This document shows, piece by piece, positions 26,538 through 58,991 of a stretch of DNA of 58,991 nt. Each line of letters begins with the position of its first letter. Position 1 is the stretch's first letter. The position numbers were made by a program, and so were the translations under genes. This stretch comes from a virus (taxonomy: Duplodnaviria; Caudoviricetes): the IMG/VR virus record IMGVR_UViG_3300043432_000110, positions 1 to 58,991 of that record; one strand, written 5' to 3'. The notes under the pieces are model-generated. The model was given only the letters and a program-made list of their open reading frames with translations, was not told the DNA's origin and searched no databases.

Positions 26538-26636
26538 ATGAGCGAGATGGTCTGCGAGCTGTGCGGGTGCGGCATGGTCCGGTGCGCCGACGGCTGGGTC
26601 TGCCCGGAGTGCGGCTTCAAGGTGGAGGACGAGTGA
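26538..26636 (+). CDS. 32-aa zinc-ribbon peptide
   Basis: MSEMVCELCGCGMVRCADGWVCPECGFKVEDE; overlaps neighbours at both ends. Confidence 0.55.
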   Translation: MSEMVCELCGCGMVRCADGWVCPECGFKVEDE

Positions 26637-27136
26637 GAACTGAACTGCTACTGCTTATGAGCCTGATCGTCTGCGGCTGCGCCGGACAGCGCGGCTTCCC
26701 GCCCAAGGACCAGATACAGAACTTCGACGTTGTGGACGCTCACTTGTGCCGCGGTGCTCAGCCGAACGCCGCCGGCCTGGAAGCGCTGGCCAAGTCGGGC
26801 GTCACGCTCGTGCTGAACCTGCGGCGCGGCGACACGTGGCTCGATGAATGGAGGGTCTGCAACTCGCTCGGCATGGACTACAAGGAGGTCGGCCTGAGCG
26901 GTGTCGTCTCCCCGAAGCAGTCGGACCTGCGCCGGATCGTCCGCATGATAGACGAGCACACCGGCAAGGTGTTCGTCCATTGTCAGTTCGGGTGCGACCG
27001 TACCGGAGTTGTGGTGGCCTGTTACAGAATTGGCCGAGGCATGTCGCCGGAAGAGGCTTACAAGGATGCGCGGTTTCACGGCTTTTCGCCTATCTTCACC
27101 GGCTTCCGCGACGTGATCCTGAACTACAAGCCGTGA
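26633..27136 (+). CDS. Lipoprotein Cys-dependent (PTP/dual-specificity) phosphatase
   Basis: Lipobox IVCG|C; RGAQP, VLNLR and HCQFGCDRTG (HCx5R). Confidence 0.88.
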   Translation: MRTELLLLMSLIVCGCAGQRGFPPKDQIQNFDVVDAHLCRGAQPNAAGLEALAKSGVTLVLNLRRGDTWLDEWRVCNSLGMDYKEVGLSGVVSPKQSDLRRIVRMIDEHTGKVFVHCQFGCDRTGVVVACYRIGRGMSPEEAYKDARFHGFSPIFTGFRDVILNYKP

Positions 27137-49470: not shown

Positions 49471-50766
49471 GTGAAGCCAAGCAAATCCAAGGCTGAACCG
49501 CGCAAGGTGGTTTATACGCTGCGCGGCGGGCCGGGTGAACTGTTCTCGTCAACCGAGCACGAAGTCATCTGCGCCGGGCCGGCTGACAGTTCCAAGACGT
49601 TCGCCGGCTGTCTCAAGGCACACGACATCTGTTCAAACTTTCCGGGTGCGCAAGGCGCGATGGTCCGCAAGACATACGCGTCGCTCGCAGGTTCAGCGGT
49701 CAAGACGTTTCAGCGCATCACCAAGGGATCGGGCGTGGAGGACTTCGGCGGCGAGACTCCATCTGCGTTCATCTACCCGAACGGGAGCAAGATTTGGCTC
49801 GGTGGCATGGACAACTCCAACCGGGTGTTGTCGAGCGAGCGCGACTTTATATTCGTGCCACAGGCGGAGGAGCTGACCGAGTCTGAGTGGGAAATTCTTA
49901 GCACACGCTGCACCGGGCGTGGCGCGGTGGTTAAGAACGCGCAGCTTTACGGAGACTGCAACCCTGCCGGGAGCAAGCACTGGATACGGACGCGCAAGAG
50001 TCTGCGGCTGCTGCGGGCGACGCACAAGGACAACCCGGACTTGTATGACGACGCCGGGAACATCACGGACGAGGGCAGGAAGCGCATCGGCTTGCTTGAG
50101 GAGTCGCTGACTGGTGTTCGGCGCAAGCGACTGTTGGAAGGCATCTGGGCGACGGCCGAGGGCGCGGTTTACGAGATGTTCGACGTGGCGGTTCACGTGA
50201 AGGTCCGGGAGAGGTCGGAGATGCAGCGGTTCTACTTCGCGCTCGACGACGGCTTCACGAACCCGGCGGTGATCCTGGACATCGGCAGCGACAGCGACGG
50301 GCGCTGGCACGTGTTCCGTGAGTTCTACAAGCGCGGCTGGGTGCAGGACGACGTGGCTGGCGTGGCGGCGGACTGGCATAAGGAGCGGCGTGTTGACTTG
50401 GCGGCGGTTGACGAGGCAGCCGCTGGGCTGGTCGAGGCGCTGAAGCGGAAGGGGTTGCCGGCAAGGGGCGGCAAGGGCAGGATCACGGACGGTATAGCGA
50501 CGATACAGGCGCGGCTCAAGGTGCAGGCGGATGGGAAACCGAGACTGACAGTTGACCCGTCGTGCGTCGAGACGATCAATGAGTTCGAGTCCTACGTGTG
50601 GAAGCCGGAGAAGGACGTGCCGGTTGATGATGACAACCACAGCATGGGTGCGCTGCGTTATCTTGCAGACGTGCTTTCGGGCGCGACGGGCGGACAAGTG
50701 AGCGTGCAATCGTCGGCCTACGGCGGCTCGCTGGGCGGCGTGAACAGGAGGGAGACGCTGACGTGA
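49471..50766 (+). CDS. terL: Terminase large subunit
   Basis: Walker-A-like GPADSSKT, DCNP, KRLLEGIW, DDGFTNP, DNHSMGALRY. Confidence 0.92.
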   Translation: MKPSKSKAEPRKVVYTLRGGPGELFSSTEHEVICAGPADSSKTFAGCLKAHDICSNFPGAQGAMVRKTYASLAGSAVKTFQRITKGSGVEDFGGETPSAFIYPNGSKIWLGGMDNSNRVLSSERDFIFVPQAEELTESEWEILSTRCTGRGAVVKNAQLYGDCNPAGSKHWIRTRKSLRLLRATHKDNPDLYDDAGNITDEGRKRIGLLEESLTGVRRKRLLEGIWATAEGAVYEMFDVAVHVKVRERSEMQRFYFALDDGFTNPAVILDIGSDSDGRWHVFREFYKRGWVQDDVAGVAADWHKERRVDLAAVDEAAAGLVEALKRKGLPARGGKGRITDGIATIQARLKVQADGKPRLTVDPSCVETINEFESYVWKPEKDVPVDDDNHSMGALRYLADVLSGATGGQVSVQSSAYGGSLGGVNRRETLT

Positions 50767-52342: not shown

Positions 52343-53926
52343 ATGGCTGCTAGAACGCCTTCAACTCGCGGCGCGGTTGCCCTCAACGAACCGCGCATAA
52401 CCCCCACCCCACCTGTCCCGACCGATTCTGGCAATGGAGGTGGCCAGACCAGCCTTGTCACAGCCACGCGGCGCTACAACCAGCTTCAGACGCGATACAG
52501 CATCGCCAAGCTGACCGCCGCGACGCTGGTTAGTGAGATAAGGAACTTCAAGGCCGGCTACCTGACGCCGTTCGCGCAGCGCATGGAGGAGATCGAGGAA
52601 CGGGATGACGTGCTTAAGAGCGTTATTCCGAAGCGCGAGGCGTCCGTCAAGAGGCTCAAATGGCAGGTGTTGGTGAATGAGGACGTGGAGGAAGGCGAGA
52701 AGGAAGCGGCTGATGAACACCGGAAAGCGCTGTTCGACTTCTACAACACGATGGCCGTGACGCACGCGATGGACGCGAACCTGAAGGGCGGCTTCTCGTC
52801 GTTCGTTGAGTTCGCCATGAAGTGCGTCGGGCATAGGTGGTCCGCTTTCGAGATGATATGGAAGCCGACGACTGAGGGGCTGGCTGCGGAGGCGGTGTTC
52901 GTGCCGCTGCGGTTCTTCGAGAATAGGACTGGGCAACTACGTTTCCTGGCGAGTGACTTCGCGACGTTCGGCGATGAGTTGAACGAAAACGGATGGGTGG
53001 TGTTCTGTGGGCCGGGTTTGCTAGAGCCGTGCGCGGTCAACTACCTCATCAAGGACCTGGCGCGCACGAGCTGGCTGATTTATTGCCAGAACCAGGGCAT
53101 GCCGGGGATCGTCGGCAAGACGACGGCGGGCTACCAGAGCGCGCAGTGGACGGCGTTCAACACGGCTCTGGGCGACCTGCTGGCGGGCAACACGCTGCTG
53201 ATGGGCGAGGGCGACTCGGTGGAGAAGCTGGACCTGAGCGCGCAGGGGACGCTGCCGTTCCCGGAACTGATTCGGGAACAGAACGAGCGGATGGCAACGC
53301 TCTGGCGTGGCGGCAGCAAGAGCACGATCAGCACGGGCGGCCCTGACCAGACCGGGGTGACGCTGCAAGCGGACGAAGAGACGAAGCTGGCGGCGGACGA
53401 CGGACAACGGTTGAGCGACACGCTGAACCAGACGCTTGACAAGATCGTGATCGAGTGGACGTTCGGCGAGGGGGTGAAACCGCTGGCCTACGTGAAGATC
53501 GCGCCGCCGCAAACCATTGACGCGGACAGGGACATCAAGGTGTTCACGTTCCTTGGGGAGAGCGGCGTGACGCTGGGCAAACAACAGCTCAGGGAACACT
53601 TCAGCGTGGGCGAACCGGCAGAAGGCGACGAGCCTGTGACCGTGCCGAAGCCGAAGCCGGCGTTCGGGCAACCGCAGTTGGACGCGGACGGCAATCCACT
53701 TATGGACACGGGCGCATTAGATGAAGGCGCGCAAGACGAAGCGACGCCGGAAGAGTTGCAGAAGGAACTCAACGCGAAGCGTGCGGAACTTCGGGGACAG
53801 GCGGGCAACGAGAAGCTGACGCAGGTGGACCTGCTCAAGAGCCTGAACACGCCTCGCAACGCTCGGGCGCTGAACGAACTGTTGCGGAGCGGTCAACTGA
53901 ACGAACTGGCGAACACCAAACCATGA
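52343..53926 (+). CDS. Portal protein (Mu gp29/DUF935-like)
   Basis: EEIEERD...KREASV, SAFEMIW, GMPGIVGK, LSDTLNQTL. Confidence 0.88.
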   Translation: MAARTPSTRGAVALNEPRITPTPPVPTDSGNGGGQTSLVTATRRYNQLQTRYSIAKLTAATLVSEIRNFKAGYLTPFAQRMEEIEERDDVLKSVIPKREASVKRLKWQVLVNEDVEEGEKEAADEHRKALFDFYNTMAVTHAMDANLKGGFSSFVEFAMKCVGHRWSAFEMIWKPTTEGLAAEAVFVPLRFFENRTGQLRFLASDFATFGDELNENGWVVFCGPGLLEPCAVNYLIKDLARTSWLIYCQNQGMPGIVGKTTAGYQSAQWTAFNTALGDLLAGNTLLMGEGDSVEKLDLSAQGTLPFPELIREQNERMATLWRGGSKSTISTGGPDQTGVTLQADEETKLAADDGQRLSDTLNQTLDKIVIEWTFGEGVKPLAYVKIAPPQTIDADRDIKVFTFLGESGVTLGKQQLREHFSVGEPAEGDEPVTVPKPKPAFGQPQLDADGNPLMDTGALDEGAQDEATPEELQKELNAKRAELRGQAGNEKLTQVDLLKSLNTPRNARALNELLRSGQLNELANTKP

Positions 53927-54120
53927 GCGAACCAACGAACTACCAGCGGGAGAAGGCGACGGAAGTTGTGCAGGTGTGTTTAACACCGACCGTGGCGGAG
54001 CGGGTGCGCGAGGCGGCCAACACGACATTCAACGGCAACGTGAGCGGCTGGGCGAAACAACAGTTGGCGGAAGCGGCGCAGCGGGTGGTGGAGAAATACA
54101 AACAAAGGACTTGCAACTAG
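53923..54120 (+). CDS. Ribbon-helix-helix regulator
   Basis: VVQVCLT strand + ERVREAA + NVSGWAKQQL. Confidence 0.6.
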   Translation: MSEPTNYQREKATEVVQVCLTPTVAERVREAANTTFNGNVSGWAKQQLAEAAQRVVEKYKQRTCN

Positions 54121-54277
54121 GTCAGTGATTGGTTAGGCTTTGACTGTAACGGATTGCAGCCCGTGAACAGAAACCAAAAACAAATTTGCACCCACTCGAC
54201 GGCGGGGAGAATCCTCTTGGGATTTTCCGCTGCAACCCTGTTGGATGGGTGCTCGTGGGAGCGAAAGCTCAACTCAT

Positions 54278-54506
54278 GGCACGGCAGGCGCGGTTATCCC
54301 TTGTTCGGCAGAGTCGAGTCTGGTTTAGTTCGGTAGGCATGGCAGGATTGGCAAGACTCGGTTCGTCTGGTTAAGGTCTTGTTCATTATGGCAGGTAGGG
54401 TAGGACTGGTATCGGATTGTTGGGGTTTGTCGGGGTTGGTGTGGCAGGCAAGGCATCATCAGTCGTGACGGGGCAAGGCTGGGCAATGAGTGGAGCGAGT
54501 AGCAGG
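54278..54506 (+). repeat. Period-5 (GGY-like + NN) repeat array, four units delimited by GGCAGG; candidate guide-RNA array
   Basis: GGCAGG at 54283, 54341, 54390, 54443 and AGCAGG at 54501; 5-nt periodicity between them. Confidence 0.8.
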
Positions 54507-54516
54507 AAGGAAGCAA

Positions 54517-55164
54517 ATGCAGAAAACGAAGTCGGTTGTTCAAATCACACCGCCGAACATTCAAACGGCGGCTTTCACCATCGAGGGCCTTACGCCGCTC
54601 GTTCAACATCGGTTCTCGGTCAAGGCCAAGCAGGGCATGATTGAGAAAGTCGAGGAGGGTTCAAAGCCTAGCAAGGGCAAGAACAAACACGCCGCCACGG
54701 ACACGGACGACATCTACAACGCCGCCCGCTACATCTCAACGGAAGGCTGGGATGGCTTCAACGTCTCAGCCATTCGCTGCGCGATCATTCGGGCATGCAG
54801 TCTGGTCAACTTCAAGATGACGCTGGCTAAGTTGTCTGTTTGGGTGCTGGCGGACGGGCGCGACAAGTTCGAGCCGGAGTTTGGTTTGATCCGCATTTAC
54901 GGCAAGCCGCGCAAGCTAGAGTCTGTCGTGCGCGTGCCATCCACTGGGGCGAGCATGGTGGCGTTCCGCCCGATCTACGATGAATGGAAGGCGAAGATTC
55001 GGCTTCAGTTCGACGCGGACCAGTTCAGTCTGTCTGACGTGACAAACCTTCTCGCGCGTGCGGGGGCGCAAGTAGGCATCGGCGAGGGGCGCAACAGTTC
55101 TCCCGACTCGGCTGGAATGGGTTGGGGATCGTTTCACATCGTGAATGAAAAGGCGTCCGCATGA
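54517..55164 (+). CDS. Stand-alone Cas7/RAMP-like RNA-binding protein
   Basis: FTIEGLTPLVQH first strand, FNVSAIRCAI, RPIYDEW, C-terminal Gly-rich loop AGAQVGIGEGRN...GMGWGSF. Confidence 0.75.
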   Translation: MQKTKSVVQITPPNIQTAAFTIEGLTPLVQHRFSVKAKQGMIEKVEEGSKPSKGKNKHAATDTDDIYNAARYISTEGWDGFNVSAIRCAIIRACSLVNFKMTLAKLSVWVLADGRDKFEPEFGLIRIYGKPRKLESVVRVPSTGASMVAFRPIYDEWKAKIRLQFDADQFSLSDVTNLLARAGAQVGIGEGRNSSPDSAGMGWGSFHIVNEKASA

Positions 55165-55589
55165 AGCCGAGCAAGGTCGTTGCGGAACTGAAGCGCATCG
55201 CGCAGGAGAATGGAGGCGTGCTGCAACCGGAGACGGTTGTGGACGAGGCGCGTCCCGTTTCATCTCCGCTGCACTCAAGGTTTGAGTGGGACAACACGAT
55301 TGCCGGCCAACAATATCGCATCTGGCAGGCGCGGCAACTGATCCGTGTCGTGGTGGAGGTATTGGCGGGCACGGACGACGCAACAAACGTGTTCGTGAGC
55401 CTGTCCACCGACCGGGAGAAGGAGTCGGGCGGATACCGCGTCATGGCGCACGTCTTGACGGACGCTCAGATGCGGAAGCAAATGCTTGATGACGCGCTGG
55501 CGGAGCTGCGGACGTTCCAAGAGAAGTACCGCCGGCTCAAGGAATTGGTGGATGTGTTCGCGGCAATTCGCAGAGTCAAGAGAAAGTGA
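55161..55589 (+). CDS. Conserved partner protein of the RAMP-like gene
   Basis: LQPETVVDEARPVSSPLHSRFEWD...YRIWQARQLIR; ATGA-coupled to the RAMP gene. Confidence 0.75.
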   Translation: MKPSKVVAELKRIAQENGGVLQPETVVDEARPVSSPLHSRFEWDNTIAGQQYRIWQARQLIRVVVEVLAGTDDATNVFVSLSTDREKESGGYRVMAHVLTDAQMRKQMLDDALAELRTFQEKYRRLKELVDVFAAIRRVKRK

Positions 55590-55598
55590 AATGATAGA

Positions 55599-55664
55599 GG
55601 CGTGGCAGGCAAGGAGATGTCGGGCTAGATAATGCGAGACGGAGATAGGAGCGGTTTTGCCGGT
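55599..55664 (+). repeat. Fifth period-5 repeat unit
   Basis: GGC-GT-GGCA-GGC-AA-GGA-GA-TGT-CG-GGC-TA-GAT-AA-TGC-GA-GAC-GG-AGA-TA-GGA-GC-GGT-TT. Confidence 0.7.
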
Positions 55665-55696
55665 AACGGCGGGTCAGAAATGGCCCGCCGTTTTTT
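55665..55696 (+). terminator. Rho-independent terminator
   Basis: AACGGCGGGTCA-GAAA-TGGCCCGCCGTT followed by T-tract. Confidence 0.9.
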
Positions 55697-55767
55697 GCTT
55701 TCTATTAACAAATAATAGCCAGCAGGTTTTGCACTAGGCGAGGCTCATAGGCTAAAGAATAGGCGAG

Positions 55768-56670
55768 ATGAAGTACGTCTCGCCTTTTGCTTTGTTCGCC
55801 AACGAGTCGGCCAAGCCGAACCCGGGCGGAGAACTTTCGACTTGCTGGGCGAACGAGTTCAAGGATGCGGACGAAGGTTTGACGGTCGTTCAGCTTGCGC
55901 CGTTTGGCAGCTTCCCAAATGTTCAAGGACTTCAGGTTTTTCACCCAAAAGACGCGGCCAACATCACCAGTGACATCATCGCGAATGTGAAGATGCGGGT
56001 TGGGCCGGGCCTGCCTTGGTATGTTGGCCATCCGGACCACCCGCTGCACCGCGACAAATACAAGGACGGTTTGGCTTACGGCAGGATCAAGGCGCTGGAA
56101 GCGCGGAGCGACGCTAACTGTCCGGCGTGCGCAGCTTTCATGGCCAACTCGCAGAACGGCAACGAGCCGTGCCGGGAGCACGGTCTGTTCGCCAAGGTGA
56201 AGTTCAACGAGGCTGGCAAGAAGCTCATCGCGAATGAGGCATACGACGCGCACTCGGTCAACTGGCGGCTGCGGAAGCAGAAAGACGGCTGGCACCCGTT
56301 CAGCCTCAAGAGCGTAGGCTTCACGAACGAGCCGAACATCCCCGTGCCGGCGATCACGAGCGCGAACGAGCTGTGCGACTGCGAGTGGGCGGGCGACGAG
56401 GACCTGACGGCGGCGCACTTCAAAAAGCTGGCCGGCGTGAGAATGATGGCGAACGCGTGCGGCACGGATGAAGAAGCGAAGTACCAGACGATGAAGAACA
56501 GCTTCGGCCCGTGGCAGGACTGGGACGCGTGCATCCTGCACATGACGACCAAGGGCGGCTACGACATGGAAGCCGCGAAGAACGTGTGCGGTCGGCTCAA
56601 GGCGGACTTGGAAGGGGCGAACGCGATACCTGAACAGTTCAAGCGGCTTGCGAAGATGCGGAAGAAATGA
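55768..56670 (+). CDS. Prohead protease (Mu gpI-like)
   Basis: LAPFG, YVGHPDH, AYGRIKAL, YDAHSVNW, SVGFTNEPNIP. Confidence 0.85.
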   Translation: MKYVSPFALFANESAKPNPGGELSTCWANEFKDADEGLTVVQLAPFGSFPNVQGLQVFHPKDAANITSDIIANVKMRVGPGLPWYVGHPDHPLHRDKYKDGLAYGRIKALEARSDANCPACAAFMANSQNGNEPCREHGLFAKVKFNEAGKKLIANEAYDAHSVNWRLRKQKDGWHPFSLKSVGFTNEPNIPVPAITSANELCDCEWAGDEDLTAAHFKKLAGVRMMANACGTDEEAKYQTMKNSFGPWQDWDACILHMTTKGGYDMEAAKNVCGRLKADLEGANAIPEQFKRLAKMRKK

Positions 56671-56714
56671 ATTTGCCGCATGGAGCGGCGACAACCAACC
56701 GAACAAGAAATCAT

Positions 56715-57515
56715 ATGATGAAACAAATCAAGTCAATCGTGGCGTTTGTCGCGCTGAAGTGCGGCATCCCTCTCACCCGGACGATGGCCAACGCCGACCC
56801 GGACCCGACAAAGACGGACCTGACGCACAAGGACATGCTTTGGAAGCTGCTCGGGCTGCCGGCGGACGCGAACCCGGACATGGTCAACGAACGGTTCAAG
56901 GCCGCGATGGCGGTTGAGCCGGACGAGGATGACAAGAAGAAGGCCGGGGAACTGAAGGCCGCGAACGAGAAGGTGGCGCAGGCTGACAAGGCCAAGGCAG
57001 AAGCGGACGCAGCAAAGGTCGCTGCCGAAACGGCGATGGCCAACGAGAAGTCCGCCAAGGAAGCCGCTGACGCGAGGGCGAAGCAGGCGACCGAGACGCT
57101 CGCTGCCGCGAACGAGAAGGCCAAGACGCTGGAGACGCAGTTCGCCAACGAGCGGACGGCGCGGATCAAGCTGGAGCTGGACGCGGCCATTATCGCGAAC
57201 AAGATCACCGGCGCGCAGCGCAAGGAGTTCGAAGCGGAGTTCGCCAACGCGGCAGCCTTCGACGCCACGCTGAAGAAGCTGGCTGAGAGCAAGGGCACGA
57301 AGTTGCCGACTACGAGGCAGGCGGCGAACATCGGAGCGCGCAAGCCGCACTTCACGCCCGAGGGCAAGGCGCGGCAGGACAAGATCGCCGAGATGGTGAA
57401 CGAGGAGAGCAAGAAGGCGTGCTACCGTCACCTGCCGGACAACGCCCGCTACTCGCAGTCGTTCACGGCTGTGATGAACGCTCATCCCGAGTTGAAGACG
57501 ACCGAAACCAAGTGA
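56715..57515 (+). CDS. Scaffold protein
   Basis: LWKLLGLPADA then Ala/Lys/Glu coiled coil; follows protease. Confidence 0.75.
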   Translation: MMKQIKSIVAFVALKCGIPLTRTMANADPDPTKTDLTHKDMLWKLLGLPADANPDMVNERFKAAMAVEPDEDDKKKAGELKAANEKVAQADKAKAEADAAKVAAETAMANEKSAKEAADARAKQATETLAAANEKAKTLETQFANERTARIKLELDAAIIANKITGAQRKEFEAEFANAAAFDATLKKLAESKGTKLPTTRQAANIGARKPHFTPEGKARQDKIAEMVNEESKKACYRHLPDNARYSQSFTAVMNAHPELKTTETK

Positions 57516-57521
57516 CGTGAC

Positions 57522-57800
57522 ATGGCTAAACTACCTGAAGTCAAGACGCCGACGGCAACAACGCCGGCAGTTCCCGCGCAAGCTCCCGAGCCGGTCAAGC
57601 CGCCAGAGCCCGCCAAGGCGAAGGCCGTAGAGTTCGTTCCGAGCGGCATGGTCAACGCGATGCAACTCCGCCAGTCAGTAGAGTGGCGCGTGAAGGCCGG
57701 GCTGACGGCCATGCAGGCGTTGGACACGGCGCTGGGCCAGATGCTCAAGGACGAGTATGACGCCTGGGAGCGCAAACAAAAATCACCCGCCAAGGCGTAG
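57522..57800 (+). CDS. Hypothetical head-module protein
   Basis: Pro/Ala-rich N-terminus; between scaffold and cement genes. Confidence 0.65.
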   Translation: MAKLPEVKTPTATTPAVPAQAPEPVKPPEPAKAKAVEFVPSGMVNAMQLRQSVEWRVKAGLTAMQALDTALGQMLKDEYDAWERKQKSPAKA

Positions 57801-57828
57801 GCCAAGGCACAACAAAGGACAAACAAAG

Positions 57829-58326
57829 ATGATGACAACGATCATGGCGCTGAGTGCGCTGGCCTGCGTCCTCGCGTGCGCGTGGCTGTTCAAACGCAAT
57901 CGCGGGACGCTGCTGATGTGCAACACTTACAACGCGCCGAACGCGGGGCGAAACAACTGCGGCGTCAAGACGATGCTGGCGGACGCGGCGATCACGCGGG
58001 GCATGGTGGTGAAGTTCGGGACGGACGAGGACCACGTGGCGGTGACGAGCGCGGCTACCAGCGTGCCTATTGGCATCGCGCTGGACACGGCGGACGCAGC
58101 GGAAGACCCGGTCAGCATCGCGCTGCTCGGGGCTTACACGGGCACGCTCAAGGTGGTGGCTGGCGCGGCGATCACGATTGACGACTGGGTGCAGGGCACG
58201 ACTGCGGGCGTGGCGATCACGTGGGCGGCGACAGGCTACTGCGTGGGGCACGCGCTCCAGGCGGCTCAGGCGGCGGGGGACATCATCGAGATCGCTCCGG
58301 TGGTTGACCCGGTGGTACACGCTTAA
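57829..58326 (+). CDS. Capsid cement protein (DUF2190-like) paralogue 1 with hydrophobic leader
   Basis: TYNAPN...PIGIALD...GHALQAAQAAGDIIE. Confidence 0.75.
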   Translation: MMTTIMALSALACVLACAWLFKRNRGTLLMCNTYNAPNAGRNNCGVKTMLADAAITRGMVVKFGTDEDHVAVTSAATSVPIGIALDTADAAEDPVSIALLGAYTGTLKVVAGAAITIDDWVQGTTAGVAITWAATGYCVGHALQAAQAAGDIIEIAPVVDPVVHA

Positions 58327-58347: not shown

Positions 58348-58827
58348 ATGAAACACATTTTCAAGAACATCTGGGCGCGGTTGTTCGGGACGCTGTTCGC
58401 GAACACGACCTACAACGCTCCCAACCAGGGGCGCAGCGCGAACGGCATCAAATCGTTCAAAGCGGACGAGGCGATCACGCGCTTCTTCCTTGTGGAACGC
58501 GGCGTCGGGACGCCGACGGACGAGTACGTGCAGGTGAGCGACAGCGCCACCGACCAAGCACCGCTCGGCATCGCGCTGGACGCAATCAGCACGGCAGAAG
58601 CTGCGGCTGGCGATGTCATAGACGTGGCGGTGCTCGGTGCTTACCACGGCACGCTGCTCGGGGTGGCCAACGCGGCCATCACGGTCGGGGCGCTGATCCA
58701 GAGCGCTGGCAACGGCAAGATCAAGACGAGCGCCACTGGCTACATCATCGGGCGGGCTTTGCAGGCGGCGCAGGCGGATGGGGACATCATAGAGTTCACG
58801 CCGTTCCTGGACCCGGTCAGCACTTAA
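58348..58827 (+). CDS. Capsid cement protein (DUF2190-like) paralogue 2
   Basis: Same motifs as paralogue 1. Confidence 0.78.
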   Translation: MKHIFKNIWARLFGTLFANTTYNAPNQGRSANGIKSFKADEAITRFFLVERGVGTPTDEYVQVSDSATDQAPLGIALDAISTAEAAAGDVIDVAVLGAYHGTLLGVANAAITVGALIQSAGNGKIKTSATGYIIGRALQAAQADGDIIEFTPFLDPVST

Positions 58828-58847: not shown

Positions 58848-58991
58848 ATGAAACAATTCATCAAGAACATTTGGGCGCGGCTCTTCGGGCTGTGCATGGC
58901 TAACACGACCTACAACGCGCCGAACGCCGGGGTGAGCCCAACGGGCATTAAGTCATTCAAGGCGGACGCTGCGCTGGCCCGCTACAGCGTG
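58848..58991 (+). CDS. Capsid cement paralogue 3, 5' part (continues across the origin to 463)
   Basis: MKQFIKNIWARLFGLCMANTTYNAPN reads through the duplicated end. Confidence 0.75.
   Translation, partial: MKQFIKNIWARLFGLCMANTTYNAPNAGVSPTGIKSFKADAALARYSV

What the first reader, a model, noticed from the sequence alone, without database searches (positions are those of the whole stretch)
53923..55696. Minimal non-CRISPR RNA-guided system: Cas7/RAMP-like gene flanked by period-5 GGY-NN repeat units
Seen: inserted between portal and protease is a self-contained cassette of RHH gene, structured leader, four repeat units (54278-54506), a 215-aa protein with RAMP hallmarks (first strand IEGLTPL; C-terminal G-rich loop GAQVGIGEGR..GWGSF), a coupled partner gene, a fifth unit (55599-55664) and a terminator. 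I see no cas1/2/3/5/6 and no repeat-spacer CRISPR array. Known: Cas7-family RAMPs polymerise along guide RNA with a fixed nucleotide step. Inference: each protomer grips a constant GGY-like triplet and displays the variable NN for target pairing, giving a programmable gapped code, probably silencing competing phages without a nuclease. From memory this resembles recently reported viral 'VIPR'-type systems; I cannot verify that here.
Basis: partly seen in the sequence, partly recalled or inferred. Interest (0 to 1): 0.95.

Follow-up and report, generated by a model that had tools for sequence, protein, structure and literature searches.

The report
Phage VIPR RNA-guided silencing cassette
This freshwater phage carries a small Cas7-like protein, a partner gene and five short guide-RNA units built from GGY-NN five-base repeats, which makes it a new environmental example of the VIPR systems first described in 2026 preprints, not a new kind of system.

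Summary
Five units of period-5 GGY/NN repeats lie on the + strand, four upstream of the 215-aa gene and one downstream. Each unit opens with GGCAGG. They are far above chance.

The protein folds as a RAMP. Its Foldseek matches are type III and type VII CRISPR effector chains. It is homologous over its full length to the SUSP1 Vipr protein: hhalign probability 95%, E 2.7e-8, and the only PDB sequence hit, E 1.1e-6.

Of 120 homologous loci, 114 carry same-strand GGYNN arrays and 104 carry the same partner gene. No Cas1, Pfam RAMP family or CRISPR array is in the record.

It differs from the SUSP1 type in four ways:
- Its units are staggered and have no 3' tail.
- Its partner gene is unrelated to SUSP1 vap1.
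- Its GGY motif is looser.
- It has a 5' pseudoknot leader that recurs in two other loci.

I found no natural target and have no expression data. Verdict: new member of a known kind, moderate interest.

The parts
53923..54120 (+). 65-aa ORF, possibly a ribbon-helix-helix protein; whether it belongs to the cassette is unproven
   Evidence: Its ATG overlaps the portal stop. No Pfam, PHROG, NCBIfam or PADLOC hit. The nearest Atlas clusters are HicB-, TacA- and NikA-like (feature scores 0.93-0.94, TM 0.7-0.8), which I recall to be RHH families. This is a lead only. 0 of 120 related vipr loci have a homologue.
54146..54262 (+). Structured leader: candidate pseudoknot. Stem S1 pairs 54151-54160 with 54229-54238. 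Stem S2 pairs 54188-54194 with 54246-54252. An inner hairpin lies between S2a and S1b.
   Evidence: The MFE of 54121-54282 is -59 kcal/mol, z -3.1, with 1 of 200 shuffles as good. The same element stands upstream of vipr-like genes in L003 and L139. S1 forms 9 of 10 pairs and S2 forms 7 of 7 pairs in all three, with changes on both sides of a pair (1 in S1, 2 in S2). The inner hairpin differs in sequence in each.
54283..54340 (+). vrRNA unit 1 (GGCAGG junction at 54283; GGYNN register 54287-54336, 10 pentamers)
   Evidence: 5 of 10 pentamers are strict GGY.
54341..54389 (+). vrRNA unit 2 (register 54345-54384, 8 pentamers)
   Evidence: 3 of 8 are strict GGY.
54390..54442 (+). vrRNA unit 3 (register 54394-54438, 9 pentamers)
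   Evidence: 4 of 9 are strict GGY; G at the first position in 8 of the first 8 pentamers.
54443..54506 (+). vrRNA unit 4 (register from 54447; 10 clear pentamers to 54496, then degenerate pentamers that run into the ribosome-binding site of vipr)
   Evidence: 5 of 10 are strict GGY.
54517..55164 (+). vipr: 215-aa RAMP protein, a homologue of SUSP1 Vipr
   Evidence: AF2 pLDDT 85.2, pTM 0.80. Foldseek against PDB gave 20 matches at E<=0.001; the chains listed come from type III Csm/Cmr and type VII effector complexes. PDB sequence search hit SUSP1 Vipr 36pp_D at E 1.1e-3, 2.1e-4 and 1.1e-6 for the single sequence, the 30-sequence profile and the 61-sequence profile. hhalign probability 95.2%, E 2.7e-8, 173 columns. 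I take the ATG at 54517 and not the GTG at 54490, because homologues align from M1.
55161..55589 (+). vap-like accessory gene (142 aa), overlapping vipr by ATGA
   Evidence: phrog_15946, unknown function, 3.5e-26. A homologue is present in 104 of 120 related loci, nearly always directly downstream on the same strand. AF2 pLDDT 94.5. No PDB fold match below E 0.6; the weak list is mostly winged-helix DNA binders. Not detectably related to SUSP1 vap1 (hhalign probability 0.6%).
55604..55667 (+). vrRNA unit 5 (register 55608-55667, 12 pentamers), running into the terminator stem
   Evidence: period 5.0 is the top peak; P(max) 0.0045; 3 of 12 are strict GGY.
55665..55698 (+). Intrinsic-terminator-like hairpin and T run that closes the cassette
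   Evidence: 12-pair stem with 8 G-C pairs, followed by TTTTGCTTTC.

Best explanation
The cassette at about 54146-55698 is a VIPR (Viral Interference Programmable Repeat) system carried by a roughly 59-kb tailed phage from a freshwater metagenome. It sits between the portal and protease genes of the head module.

Likely mechanism, by homology with SUSP1 VIPR:
1. The region is transcribed on the + strand through the leader, four guide units, vipr, vap-like gene and fifth unit, ending at the terminator.
2. The transcript yields short vrRNAs of about 8-12 GGYNN repeats.
3. One Vipr protomer binds each repeat. It sequesters G-G-Y using the beta-sheet His31, the thumb Arg151 and the G-loop Glu190/Arg192, and it displays NN.
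4. The filament reads double-stranded DNA as NN-x-NN-x, skipping one base per step.
5. Binding blocks transcription of a rival mobile element, with help from the accessory protein.

Shown here: the fold, the homology, the repeat code, and the conservation of the protein-array-partner trio. Inferred: transcription, processing, binding, silencing and the nature of the targets.
For: HOMOLOGY TO THE FOUNDING VIPR. A 61-sequence profile hits only 'SUSP1 Vipr protein' in the PDB sequence copy (E 1.1e-6). hhalign against the SUSP1 gene itself gives probability 95.2%, E 2.7e-8, residues 16-211 against 2-190.

FOLD. The model is confident (pLDDT 85). Its best PDB matches are chains of type III and type VII CRISPR effector complexes at probability 1.00.

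RNA-CONTACT RESIDUES. Four of five residues named in 10.64898/2026.04.26.720927 (section read) are kept or conservatively changed: H17->H31, R138->R151, D177->E190, R179->R192 (alignments). These positions are invariant or nearly so in the family.

THE ARRAY. It fits GGY/NN (38, 36 and 40 of 53) and is far above chance.

FAMILY LEVEL. 114 of 120 homologous loci have a same-strand GGYNN array within -600/+1300 nt: 106 of 117 downstream and 28 of 116 upstream. Array density peaks at 58 per kb against about 0-0.5 in the far flanks, and stays low (about 0-3 per kb) on the opposite strand.

PARTNER GENE. It is present in 104 of 120 loci.

UNIT JUNCTION. 550 units in relatives show the GGCA|GG four-base step seen in the window. 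Spacing is mostly 40-60 nt; the window's spacings are 58, 49 and 53.

THE CLADE USES THE 1-NT SKIP CODE. 267 guides from relatives gave 27 matches at >=85% under skip 1, against 9 for permuted guides. The other skips gave 7 vs 5, 2 vs 8 and 12 vs 10. One L106 guide matches conserved vipr codons in 13 other loci, always with the skipped base at the wobble position.

NO CRISPR MACHINERY. No Cas1, no Pfam RAMP family and no CRISPR-like array in the record.
Against: NO TARGET FOUND.
- Full-length 1-nt-skip patterns of units 1, 3 and 5 gave 0 exact matches.
- Unit 4 gave 1 viral and 2 metagenome matches, in contigs of 37-45% G+C. None extends past the 10 NN searched. In the one case where I worked out the codon phase (L121), the skipped base is at codon position 1. 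This is the level expected by chance.

DEGENERATE ARRAY. Only 20 of 49 pentamers are strict GGY. In SUSP1, changing GGY abolished silencing (passages read). Relatives have a median of 0.62, though 27 of 105 loci are at or below 0.45.

MISSING CONTACT. SUSP1 W178, which stacks on G2, aligns to an invariant Gly191.

PARTNER UNRELATED TO VAP1. The partner shows no detectable relation to SUSP1 vap1.

NO 3' TAIL. There is no tail or pseudoknot after each unit, unlike SUSP1.

NO PROMOTER CALLED. No sigma-70-type promoter was called in 53700-55900.
Confidence: 0.88

Rival explanations
1. It is a VIPR locus in decay. The protein genes are intact, but the guide units have drifted so far from GGY that they no longer load or guide. 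The cassette would then be a relic or do something else.
For: 20 of 49 pentamers are strict GGY, against a median of 0.62 in relatives. GGY changes abolish silencing in SUSP1 (passages read). No target was found.
Against: All five units keep the family's GGCAGG junction and normal unit lengths. Positions G1, G2 and Y3 are still 68-75% on consensus while NN is mixed. 27 of 105 related loci are equally loose. The paper notes frequent internal degeneracy and looser repeat types such as NNNGG and NNNNG (Methods section read). Vipr keeps every invariant family residue.
Confidence: 0.08
2. It is a working Vipr-vrRNA complex that regulates the phage's own genes, for example the timing of head-gene expression, and does not attack rival elements.
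For: The cassette sits inside the head module between portal and protease. No outside target was found.
Against: No site in the phage's own 58,991 bases matches any of the five guides within 3 mismatched bases. Permuted guides do as well. The papers report no self-targets at >=80% (passage read). Relatives carry the cassette in quite different neighbourhoods: 0 of 120 have the portal or protease next to it.
Confidence: 0.03
3. The periodicity is an accident of G-rich sequence, and the protein is a stray Cas7-like RAMP with another role, such as a CRISPR decoy.
For: Pfam, NCBIfam and PADLOC give the protein no name. Two other places in the window reach the same repeat score by chance.
Against: 0 of 2000 shuffles reach the observed count. 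Arrays accompany the gene in 114 of 120 loci, on the same strand only. The protein is homologous to SUSP1 Vipr.
Confidence: 0.01

Closest known systems
VIPR system of Escherichia phage SUSP1 (type II; bioRxiv 10.64898/2026.04.26.720920 and 10.64898/2026.04.26.720927)
   Same: - A small RAMP protein homologous over its full length.
- The locus plan: guide region, then vipr, then an abutting accessory gene, then a further guide region.
- GGYNN repeats on the gene strand.
- Carried by a phage, with no cas genes or CRISPR array.
   Different: - The partner gene is not detectably related to vap1 (probability 0.6%).
- Units are about 50-60 nt and lack the roughly 35-60 nt conserved 3' tail. They abut through a GGCA|GG step.
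- W178 is replaced by Gly, and the G-loop carries an extra GMGWG segment.
- Four units lie upstream and one downstream. SUSP1 has one upstream and three downstream (passage read).
- A pseudoknot-like leader lies 5' of the array.
[quoted passage not shown]
   Same: In the relatives, and in the window, one unit's last GGCAG shares its final G with the first GG of the next unit. That is a 1-nt overlap, as the legend describes.
   Different: I could not see the figure, the data files or which VIPR type it belongs to, because supplements were closed. The identity of the two architectures is therefore inferred from a one-sentence legend.
Cas7-family backbone subunits of class 1 CRISPR effectors (Csm3, Cmr4, type VII Cas7)
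   Same: The fold (Foldseek probability 1.00, TM 0.39-0.54). By the papers' account, also the mode of RNA binding along a repeat-spaced backbone.
   Different: - No Pfam RAMP match.
- 7-14% identity over the listed matches (9-14% in the ten best).
- No crRNA repeat-spacer array and no Cas1 in the record.
- A 5-nt step with only 2 reading bases, against 6-nt steps.
- That the matched chains are Csm3, Cmr4 or Cas7 is my reading of their lengths and entries. The tool did not name them.

Membership tests
VIPR | A Vipr protein: a RAMP (RRM core, G-loop, thumb) homologous to the founding Vipr proteins | tested here: met
   hhalign against the SUSP1 gene gives probability 95.2%, E 2.7e-8 over 173 columns. 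It is the only PDB sequence hit, E 1.1e-6. The model has pLDDT 85, and its best fold matches are CRISPR type III and type VII effector chains.
VIPR | The residues that hold GGY in SUSP1 (H17, R138, D177, W178, R179) | tested here: inconclusive
   H31, R151 and R192 are identical and E190 is conservative. W178 aligns to the invariant G191. Whether W203 of the extra GMGWG loop takes over is not known.
VIPR | Adjacent same-strand tandem YNNGG/GGYNN repeats. The paper's own criterion is at least four repeat units; its units typically have 9-16. | tested here: met
   Five units of 8-12 pentamers. The consensus is kept at 68-75% per fixed position. 0 of 2000 shuffles reach the observed count. Arrays are present in 114 of 120 homologous loci. 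The criterion was read.
VIPR | A two-gene core with an accessory vap gene beside vipr | tested here: met
   The partner overlaps vipr by ATGA and is conserved in 104 of 120 loci. It is not vap1. Which of vap2-6 it is, if any, could not be checked because supplements were closed.
VIPR | No cas genes and no CRISPR array; carried by a virus | tested here: met
   Cas1 (PF01867) and RAMPs (PF03787) have no match in the record. No CRISPR-like direct repeats. PADLOC finds nothing for the three cassette proteins. The record is a virus record with terminase, portal and head genes. Other cas families were not searched one by one.
VIPR | Guides read DNA by the 1-nt skip rule and have natural targets in rival mobile elements | tested here: inconclusive
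   For the window's own guides there is no convincing target. For the clade there is support: 27 real against 9 permuted matches under skip 1 only, and wobble-aligned hits on rival vipr genes.
VIPR | vrRNAs are expressed and co-purify with Vipr | not testable with these tools
   No RNA run holds the stretch. This needs small-RNA sequencing and a pull-down.
VIPR type II (SUSP1 clade) | Each vrRNA ends in a conserved 3' tail with a pseudoknot; the accessory gene is vap1 | tested here: not met
   Units abut with no tail, unlike the SUSP1 intergenic regions. The partner is unrelated to vap1. This is therefore a VIPR, but not of the SUSP1 type.
CRISPR-Cas class 1 (Cas7 backbone) | A Cas7 encoded with other cas genes and a repeat-spacer array | tested here: not met
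   The protein is below Pfam RAMP detection.

The most novel reading that the evidence does not exclude
This clade could be a VIPR variant whose RNA layout is the reverse of SUSP1's. In this reading the units are tail-less and staggered, cut or phased at a GGCA|GG four-base step. A single 5' pseudoknot leader, shared by divergent Vipr clades (window, L003, L139), would take the place of the per-guide 3' pseudoknot as the cap or nucleation point of the filament. A G-loop lacking the stacking Trp would tolerate G-K-Y in place of strict GGY. A new accessory family would replace vap1. The main texts I read do not mention a 5' leader: 'leader' occurs 0 times in 10.64898/2026.04.26.720920. Supplements were not seen.
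Probability: 0.2. Interest if true: 0.5.

Novelty: new member of a known kind. Interest (0 to 1): 0.35.

Why it matters
VIPR is a newly reported way of reading DNA with RNA. A small protein filament exposes two bases out of every five of the guide and skips every third base of the target.

This locus adds an environmental member from a freshwater phage. It is distant from the E. coli model, with 21% identity over the hhalign alignment.

It suggests which features are core to VIPR:
- the His, Arg, acidic and Arg contacts;
- the GGYNN period;
- an adjacent small partner gene.

It also suggests which features vary:
- the 3' tail;
- the identity of the accessory gene;
- the strictness of GGY;
- the position of the cassette in the phage genome.

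The family is large. 2,813 proteins match at E<=0.001 among 2,914 candidates, and 2,004 cluster representatives match. It reaches named phages of cyanobacteria, Gordonia and Mycobacterium that could be used at the bench.

The recurring 5' pseudoknot and the anti-vipr guide in L106 are testable leads on assembly and on phage-against-phage conflict outside the enterobacteria.

Tried and rejected
FOURIER SCAN. A scan of the whole upstream array found no period-5 peak, because the units are mutually out of phase. I replaced it with register-aware scoring.

NAMED FAMILIES. Pfam, NCBIfam and PADLOC gave nothing for the three cassette proteins. Rfam at E<=1 gave only a chance-level DUF3800-XI match and no hammerhead ribozyme.

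TARGET HUNTS. I built exact 1-nt-skip patterns from the window's guides.
- Units 1, 3 and 5 gave 0 matches.
- Unit 4 gave L121, L123 and L124, which I judge to be chance.
- These scans find only perfect matches, so targets at 80-95% identity would be missed.
- The five guides, run against the window and 121 loci with permuted controls, gave nothing above control.

LEADER.
- nhmmer with the single leader sequence found nothing in 120 loci.
- A 14-base motif with 2 mismatches gave mostly chance hits.
- The gapped pattern scan gave 16 loci, of which only 2 are true relatives. One of those is the L003 contig again.
- MAFFT misaligned stem S2, so I counted pairs by script.

VAP FOLD. No significant PDB match was found, only a weak winged-helix-like list. 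BFVD and the Atlas gave only uncharacterised viral proteins.

INSERTION. Relatives of the portal were sought, to see whether the cassette is an insertion. No phage record matched and no IMG/VR relative was found. 'Inserted' therefore remains an inference from gene order.

EXPRESSION. No RNA holder was listed for the stretch.

NOT RUN.

VIPR TYPE. The type (I-VII) could not be assigned. It rests on figures and data files of 10.64898/2026.04.26.720920 that are supplements or images.

Full report
WHAT IS THERE.

The window is a whole virus record of 58,991 bases, 59.7% G+C, with direct terminal repeats. It comes from a freshwater metagenome.

It encodes a large terminase (49471-50766), a Mu-type portal (52343-53926), a protease- and scaffold-like pair (55768-57515), a major head protein (529-1554), a helicase and an exonuclease.

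Between portal and protease lie, all on the + strand:
- a 65-aa ORF (53923-54120) whose ATG overlaps the portal stop;
- a 396-nt non-coding stretch;
- a 215-aa ORF (54517-55164);
- a 142-aa ORF (55161-55589) joined to it by an ATGA overlap;
- a 75-nt non-coding stretch;
- a strong terminator-like hairpin at 55665-55692.

THE REPEATS.

GGCAGG occurs at 54283, 54341, 54390, 54443 and 55604. Read in fives from the second GG of each site, the sequence follows G-G-Y-N-N. Over 53 pentamers the three fixed positions are on consensus in 38, 36 and 40 cases, and the two N positions are mixed.

The units are out of phase with one another. That is why a plain Fourier scan of the whole array failed and only the lone downstream unit peaked at exactly 5.0.

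A register-aware score reaches 21 of 27 at six places in the whole window on both strands. Four of them are the four upstream units. The other two are G+C-rich coding sequence.

In 54276-54516, 20 positions score 19 or more. None of 2000 dinucleotide-preserving shuffles reaches that count. Outside the locus, 23 of 57,497 positions do.

The array is loose. Only 20 of 49 pentamers are strictly GG[CT].

THE PROTEIN.

Pfam, NCBIfam and PADLOC have no name for it. PHROGs places it in an unknown-function family.

An AlphaFold model built from 30 homologues is confident (pLDDT 85.2, pTM 0.80). Its 20 Foldseek matches at E<=0.001 in the PDB are, in the listed rows, chains of type III Csm/Cmr and type VII CRISPR effector complexes. 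That fold library stops at 8 April 2026 and holds no Vipr structure.

The PDB sequence copy does hold one. 'SUSP1 Vipr protein' (36pp_D) is the top hit for the single sequence (E 1.1e-3). It is also the top hit for a 30-sequence profile (2.1e-4). For a 61-sequence profile it is the only hit at E<=1 (1.1e-6).

I then reached the SUSP1 genome itself through a bridging homologue. A profile-sequence comparison gave probability 95.2%, E 2.7e-8, over residues 16-211 of ours and 2-190 of 195.

Of the SUSP1 residues reported to grip GGY (section read):
- H17, R138 and R179 align to identical H31, R151 and R192;
- D177 aligns to E190;
- W178 aligns to an invariant Gly191.

THE FAMILY.

The protein has 2,813 relatives at E<=0.001 among 2,914 candidates and 2,004 cluster representatives. 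I fetched 120 loci: the best 80 of 396 confirmed viral stretches, and 40 genome contigs.

GGYNN arrays flank the gene on its own strand in 114 of 120 loci. They lie downstream in 106 of 117 loci and upstream in 28 of 116. Density peaks at 58 per kb against about 0-0.5 in the far flanks, and stays low (about 0-3 per kb) on the other strand.

A homologue of the 142-aa partner is present in 104 of 120 loci, nearly always directly downstream. None of the 120 has the window's portal, protease or 65-aa ORF nearby. The trio of protein, partner and array therefore travels as a module.

Named carriers include Cyanophage Cy-LDV1 (50.5% identity), 5 Gordonia phages and 27 Mycobacterium phages (33 records).

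UNIT ARCHITECTURE.

Around 550 junctions in the relatives, the repeats run in phase up to a GGCA four-base step, and the next unit begins at once. The G that ends GGCAG is shared. Spacing is mostly 40-60 nt. The window's spacings are 58, 49 and 53.

This fits the 'staggered arrays' of the VIPR paper, of which I saw only the figure legend. It differs from SUSP1, where each guide carries a long conserved 3' tail.

THE LEADER.

The 162 nt before the array fold unusually well (z -3.1). The same element stands upstream of the vipr homologue in L003. It also stands upstream of a more SUSP1-like Vipr (G-loop GLGDFRP) in L139.

Two stems that cross each other hold in all three: S1 with 9 of 10 pairs and S2 with 7 of 7. 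One pair in S1 and two pairs in S2 change on both sides. An inner hairpin differs in sequence in each locus.

L003 and L139 share their stem sequences, so this amounts to two independent variants. The evidence is suggestive, not proof.

THE PARTNER AND THE SMALL ORF.

The partner models very well (pLDDT 94.5) but has no significant structural relative. The weak PDB list is mainly winged-helix DNA binders, and there are three uncharacterised viral proteins. It is not detectably related to SUSP1 vap1.

The 65-aa ORF resembles what I recall to be RHH antitoxin-type families, and only at the level of a lead.

TARGETS.

Using the published 1-nt-skip rule, the five guides have no match in the phage itself or in 121 loci beyond permuted controls.

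They have no convincing exact match in IMG/VR or the metagenome collection. The three unit-4 hits lie in low-G+C contigs and do not extend. The one I could phase (L121) is not wobble-aligned.

At clade level the rule is supported. 267 guides from relatives gave 27 matches at >=85% under skip 1 against 9 for permuted guides, with no excess under skips 0, 2 or 3.

15 of those 27 matches fall in vipr genes. One guide of L106 spells the first two bases of the codons for the conserved D-x-x-N-L-L-S-R-x-G motif. It matches 13 rival loci at 17-18 of 20 bases with the skip always at the wobble base. Its own vipr and the window's vipr match only 14 of 20.

This mirrors the vipr-targeting guides reported for enterobacterial phages (passages read).

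COMPARISON AND VERDICT.

VIPR was described in bioRxiv 10.64898/2026.04.26.720920. I read its Results, Discussion, two Methods sections and passages. The structural mechanism is in 10.64898/2026.04.26.720927, of which I read two Results sections. Its ecology is in 10.64898/2026.10.15.759431, of which I read the abstract and passages.

The locus meets the tests I could run for the family. It does not meet the tests for the SUSP1 type.

Its interest lies in the variant features: tail-less staggered units, a 5' pseudoknot, loose GGY, a different accessory gene and a head-module location.

Noticed in passing
L106:3679-3728, against the vipr genes of L001, L009, L032, L034, L038, L042, L076, L086, L087, L095, L107, L110 and L111: A guide in a relative's array encodes, in its NN positions, the first two bases of ten successive codons of the conserved Vipr motif D-x-x-N-L-L-S-R-x-G. 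It matches 13 other loci's vipr genes at 17-18 of 20 bases, always with the skipped base at the wobble position. Its own vipr matches only 14 of 20. This looks like an anti-VIPR guide in an environmental clade.
   Followed up: partly
L139:303-944 (-) and L139:1010-1121 (-): A 213-aa Vipr-like protein (G-loop GLGDFRP), too distant for tblastn with the window's protein but hitting SUSP1-family phages at about 1e-3. It is preceded by the same pseudoknot-like leader as the window and by a short degenerate period-5 stretch.
   Followed up: partly
window 57757-58326, 58348-58827, 58848-58991: Three tandem ORFs after the scaffold-like gene share a conserved stretch (...NTTYNAPN.G...K...AD.A...). In the second and third it follows an N-terminal 'MK..FKNIWARLFG'. 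They look like paralogous small head or decoration proteins, and the third runs off the end of the record.
   Followed up: no
window 26561-26636: A stretch near the start of ORF 26561-27136 with CxxC...CxxC spacing (zinc-ribbon-like). It scores as high as the real units on the GGYNN scan purely through codon composition, which makes it a useful false-positive control.
   Followed up: yes
window 55761-55785: A second terminator-like hairpin (10 pairs) that overlaps the start codon of the protease-like gene at 55768. It may instead be a translational or attenuator structure.
   Followed up: no
window 54497-54516: A further GCAGG lies 16 nt before the vipr start, inside the purine-rich ribosome-binding region (AGCAGGAAGGAAGCAAATG). 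The last guide unit and the translation signals of vipr therefore overlap, and processing of unit 4 could affect vipr translation.
   Followed up: no
whole window (G000): The record has direct terminal repeats but a completeness estimate of only 64%. The head module is split across the two ends of the record, as expected for a circularly permuted or terminally repeated genome.
   Followed up: no
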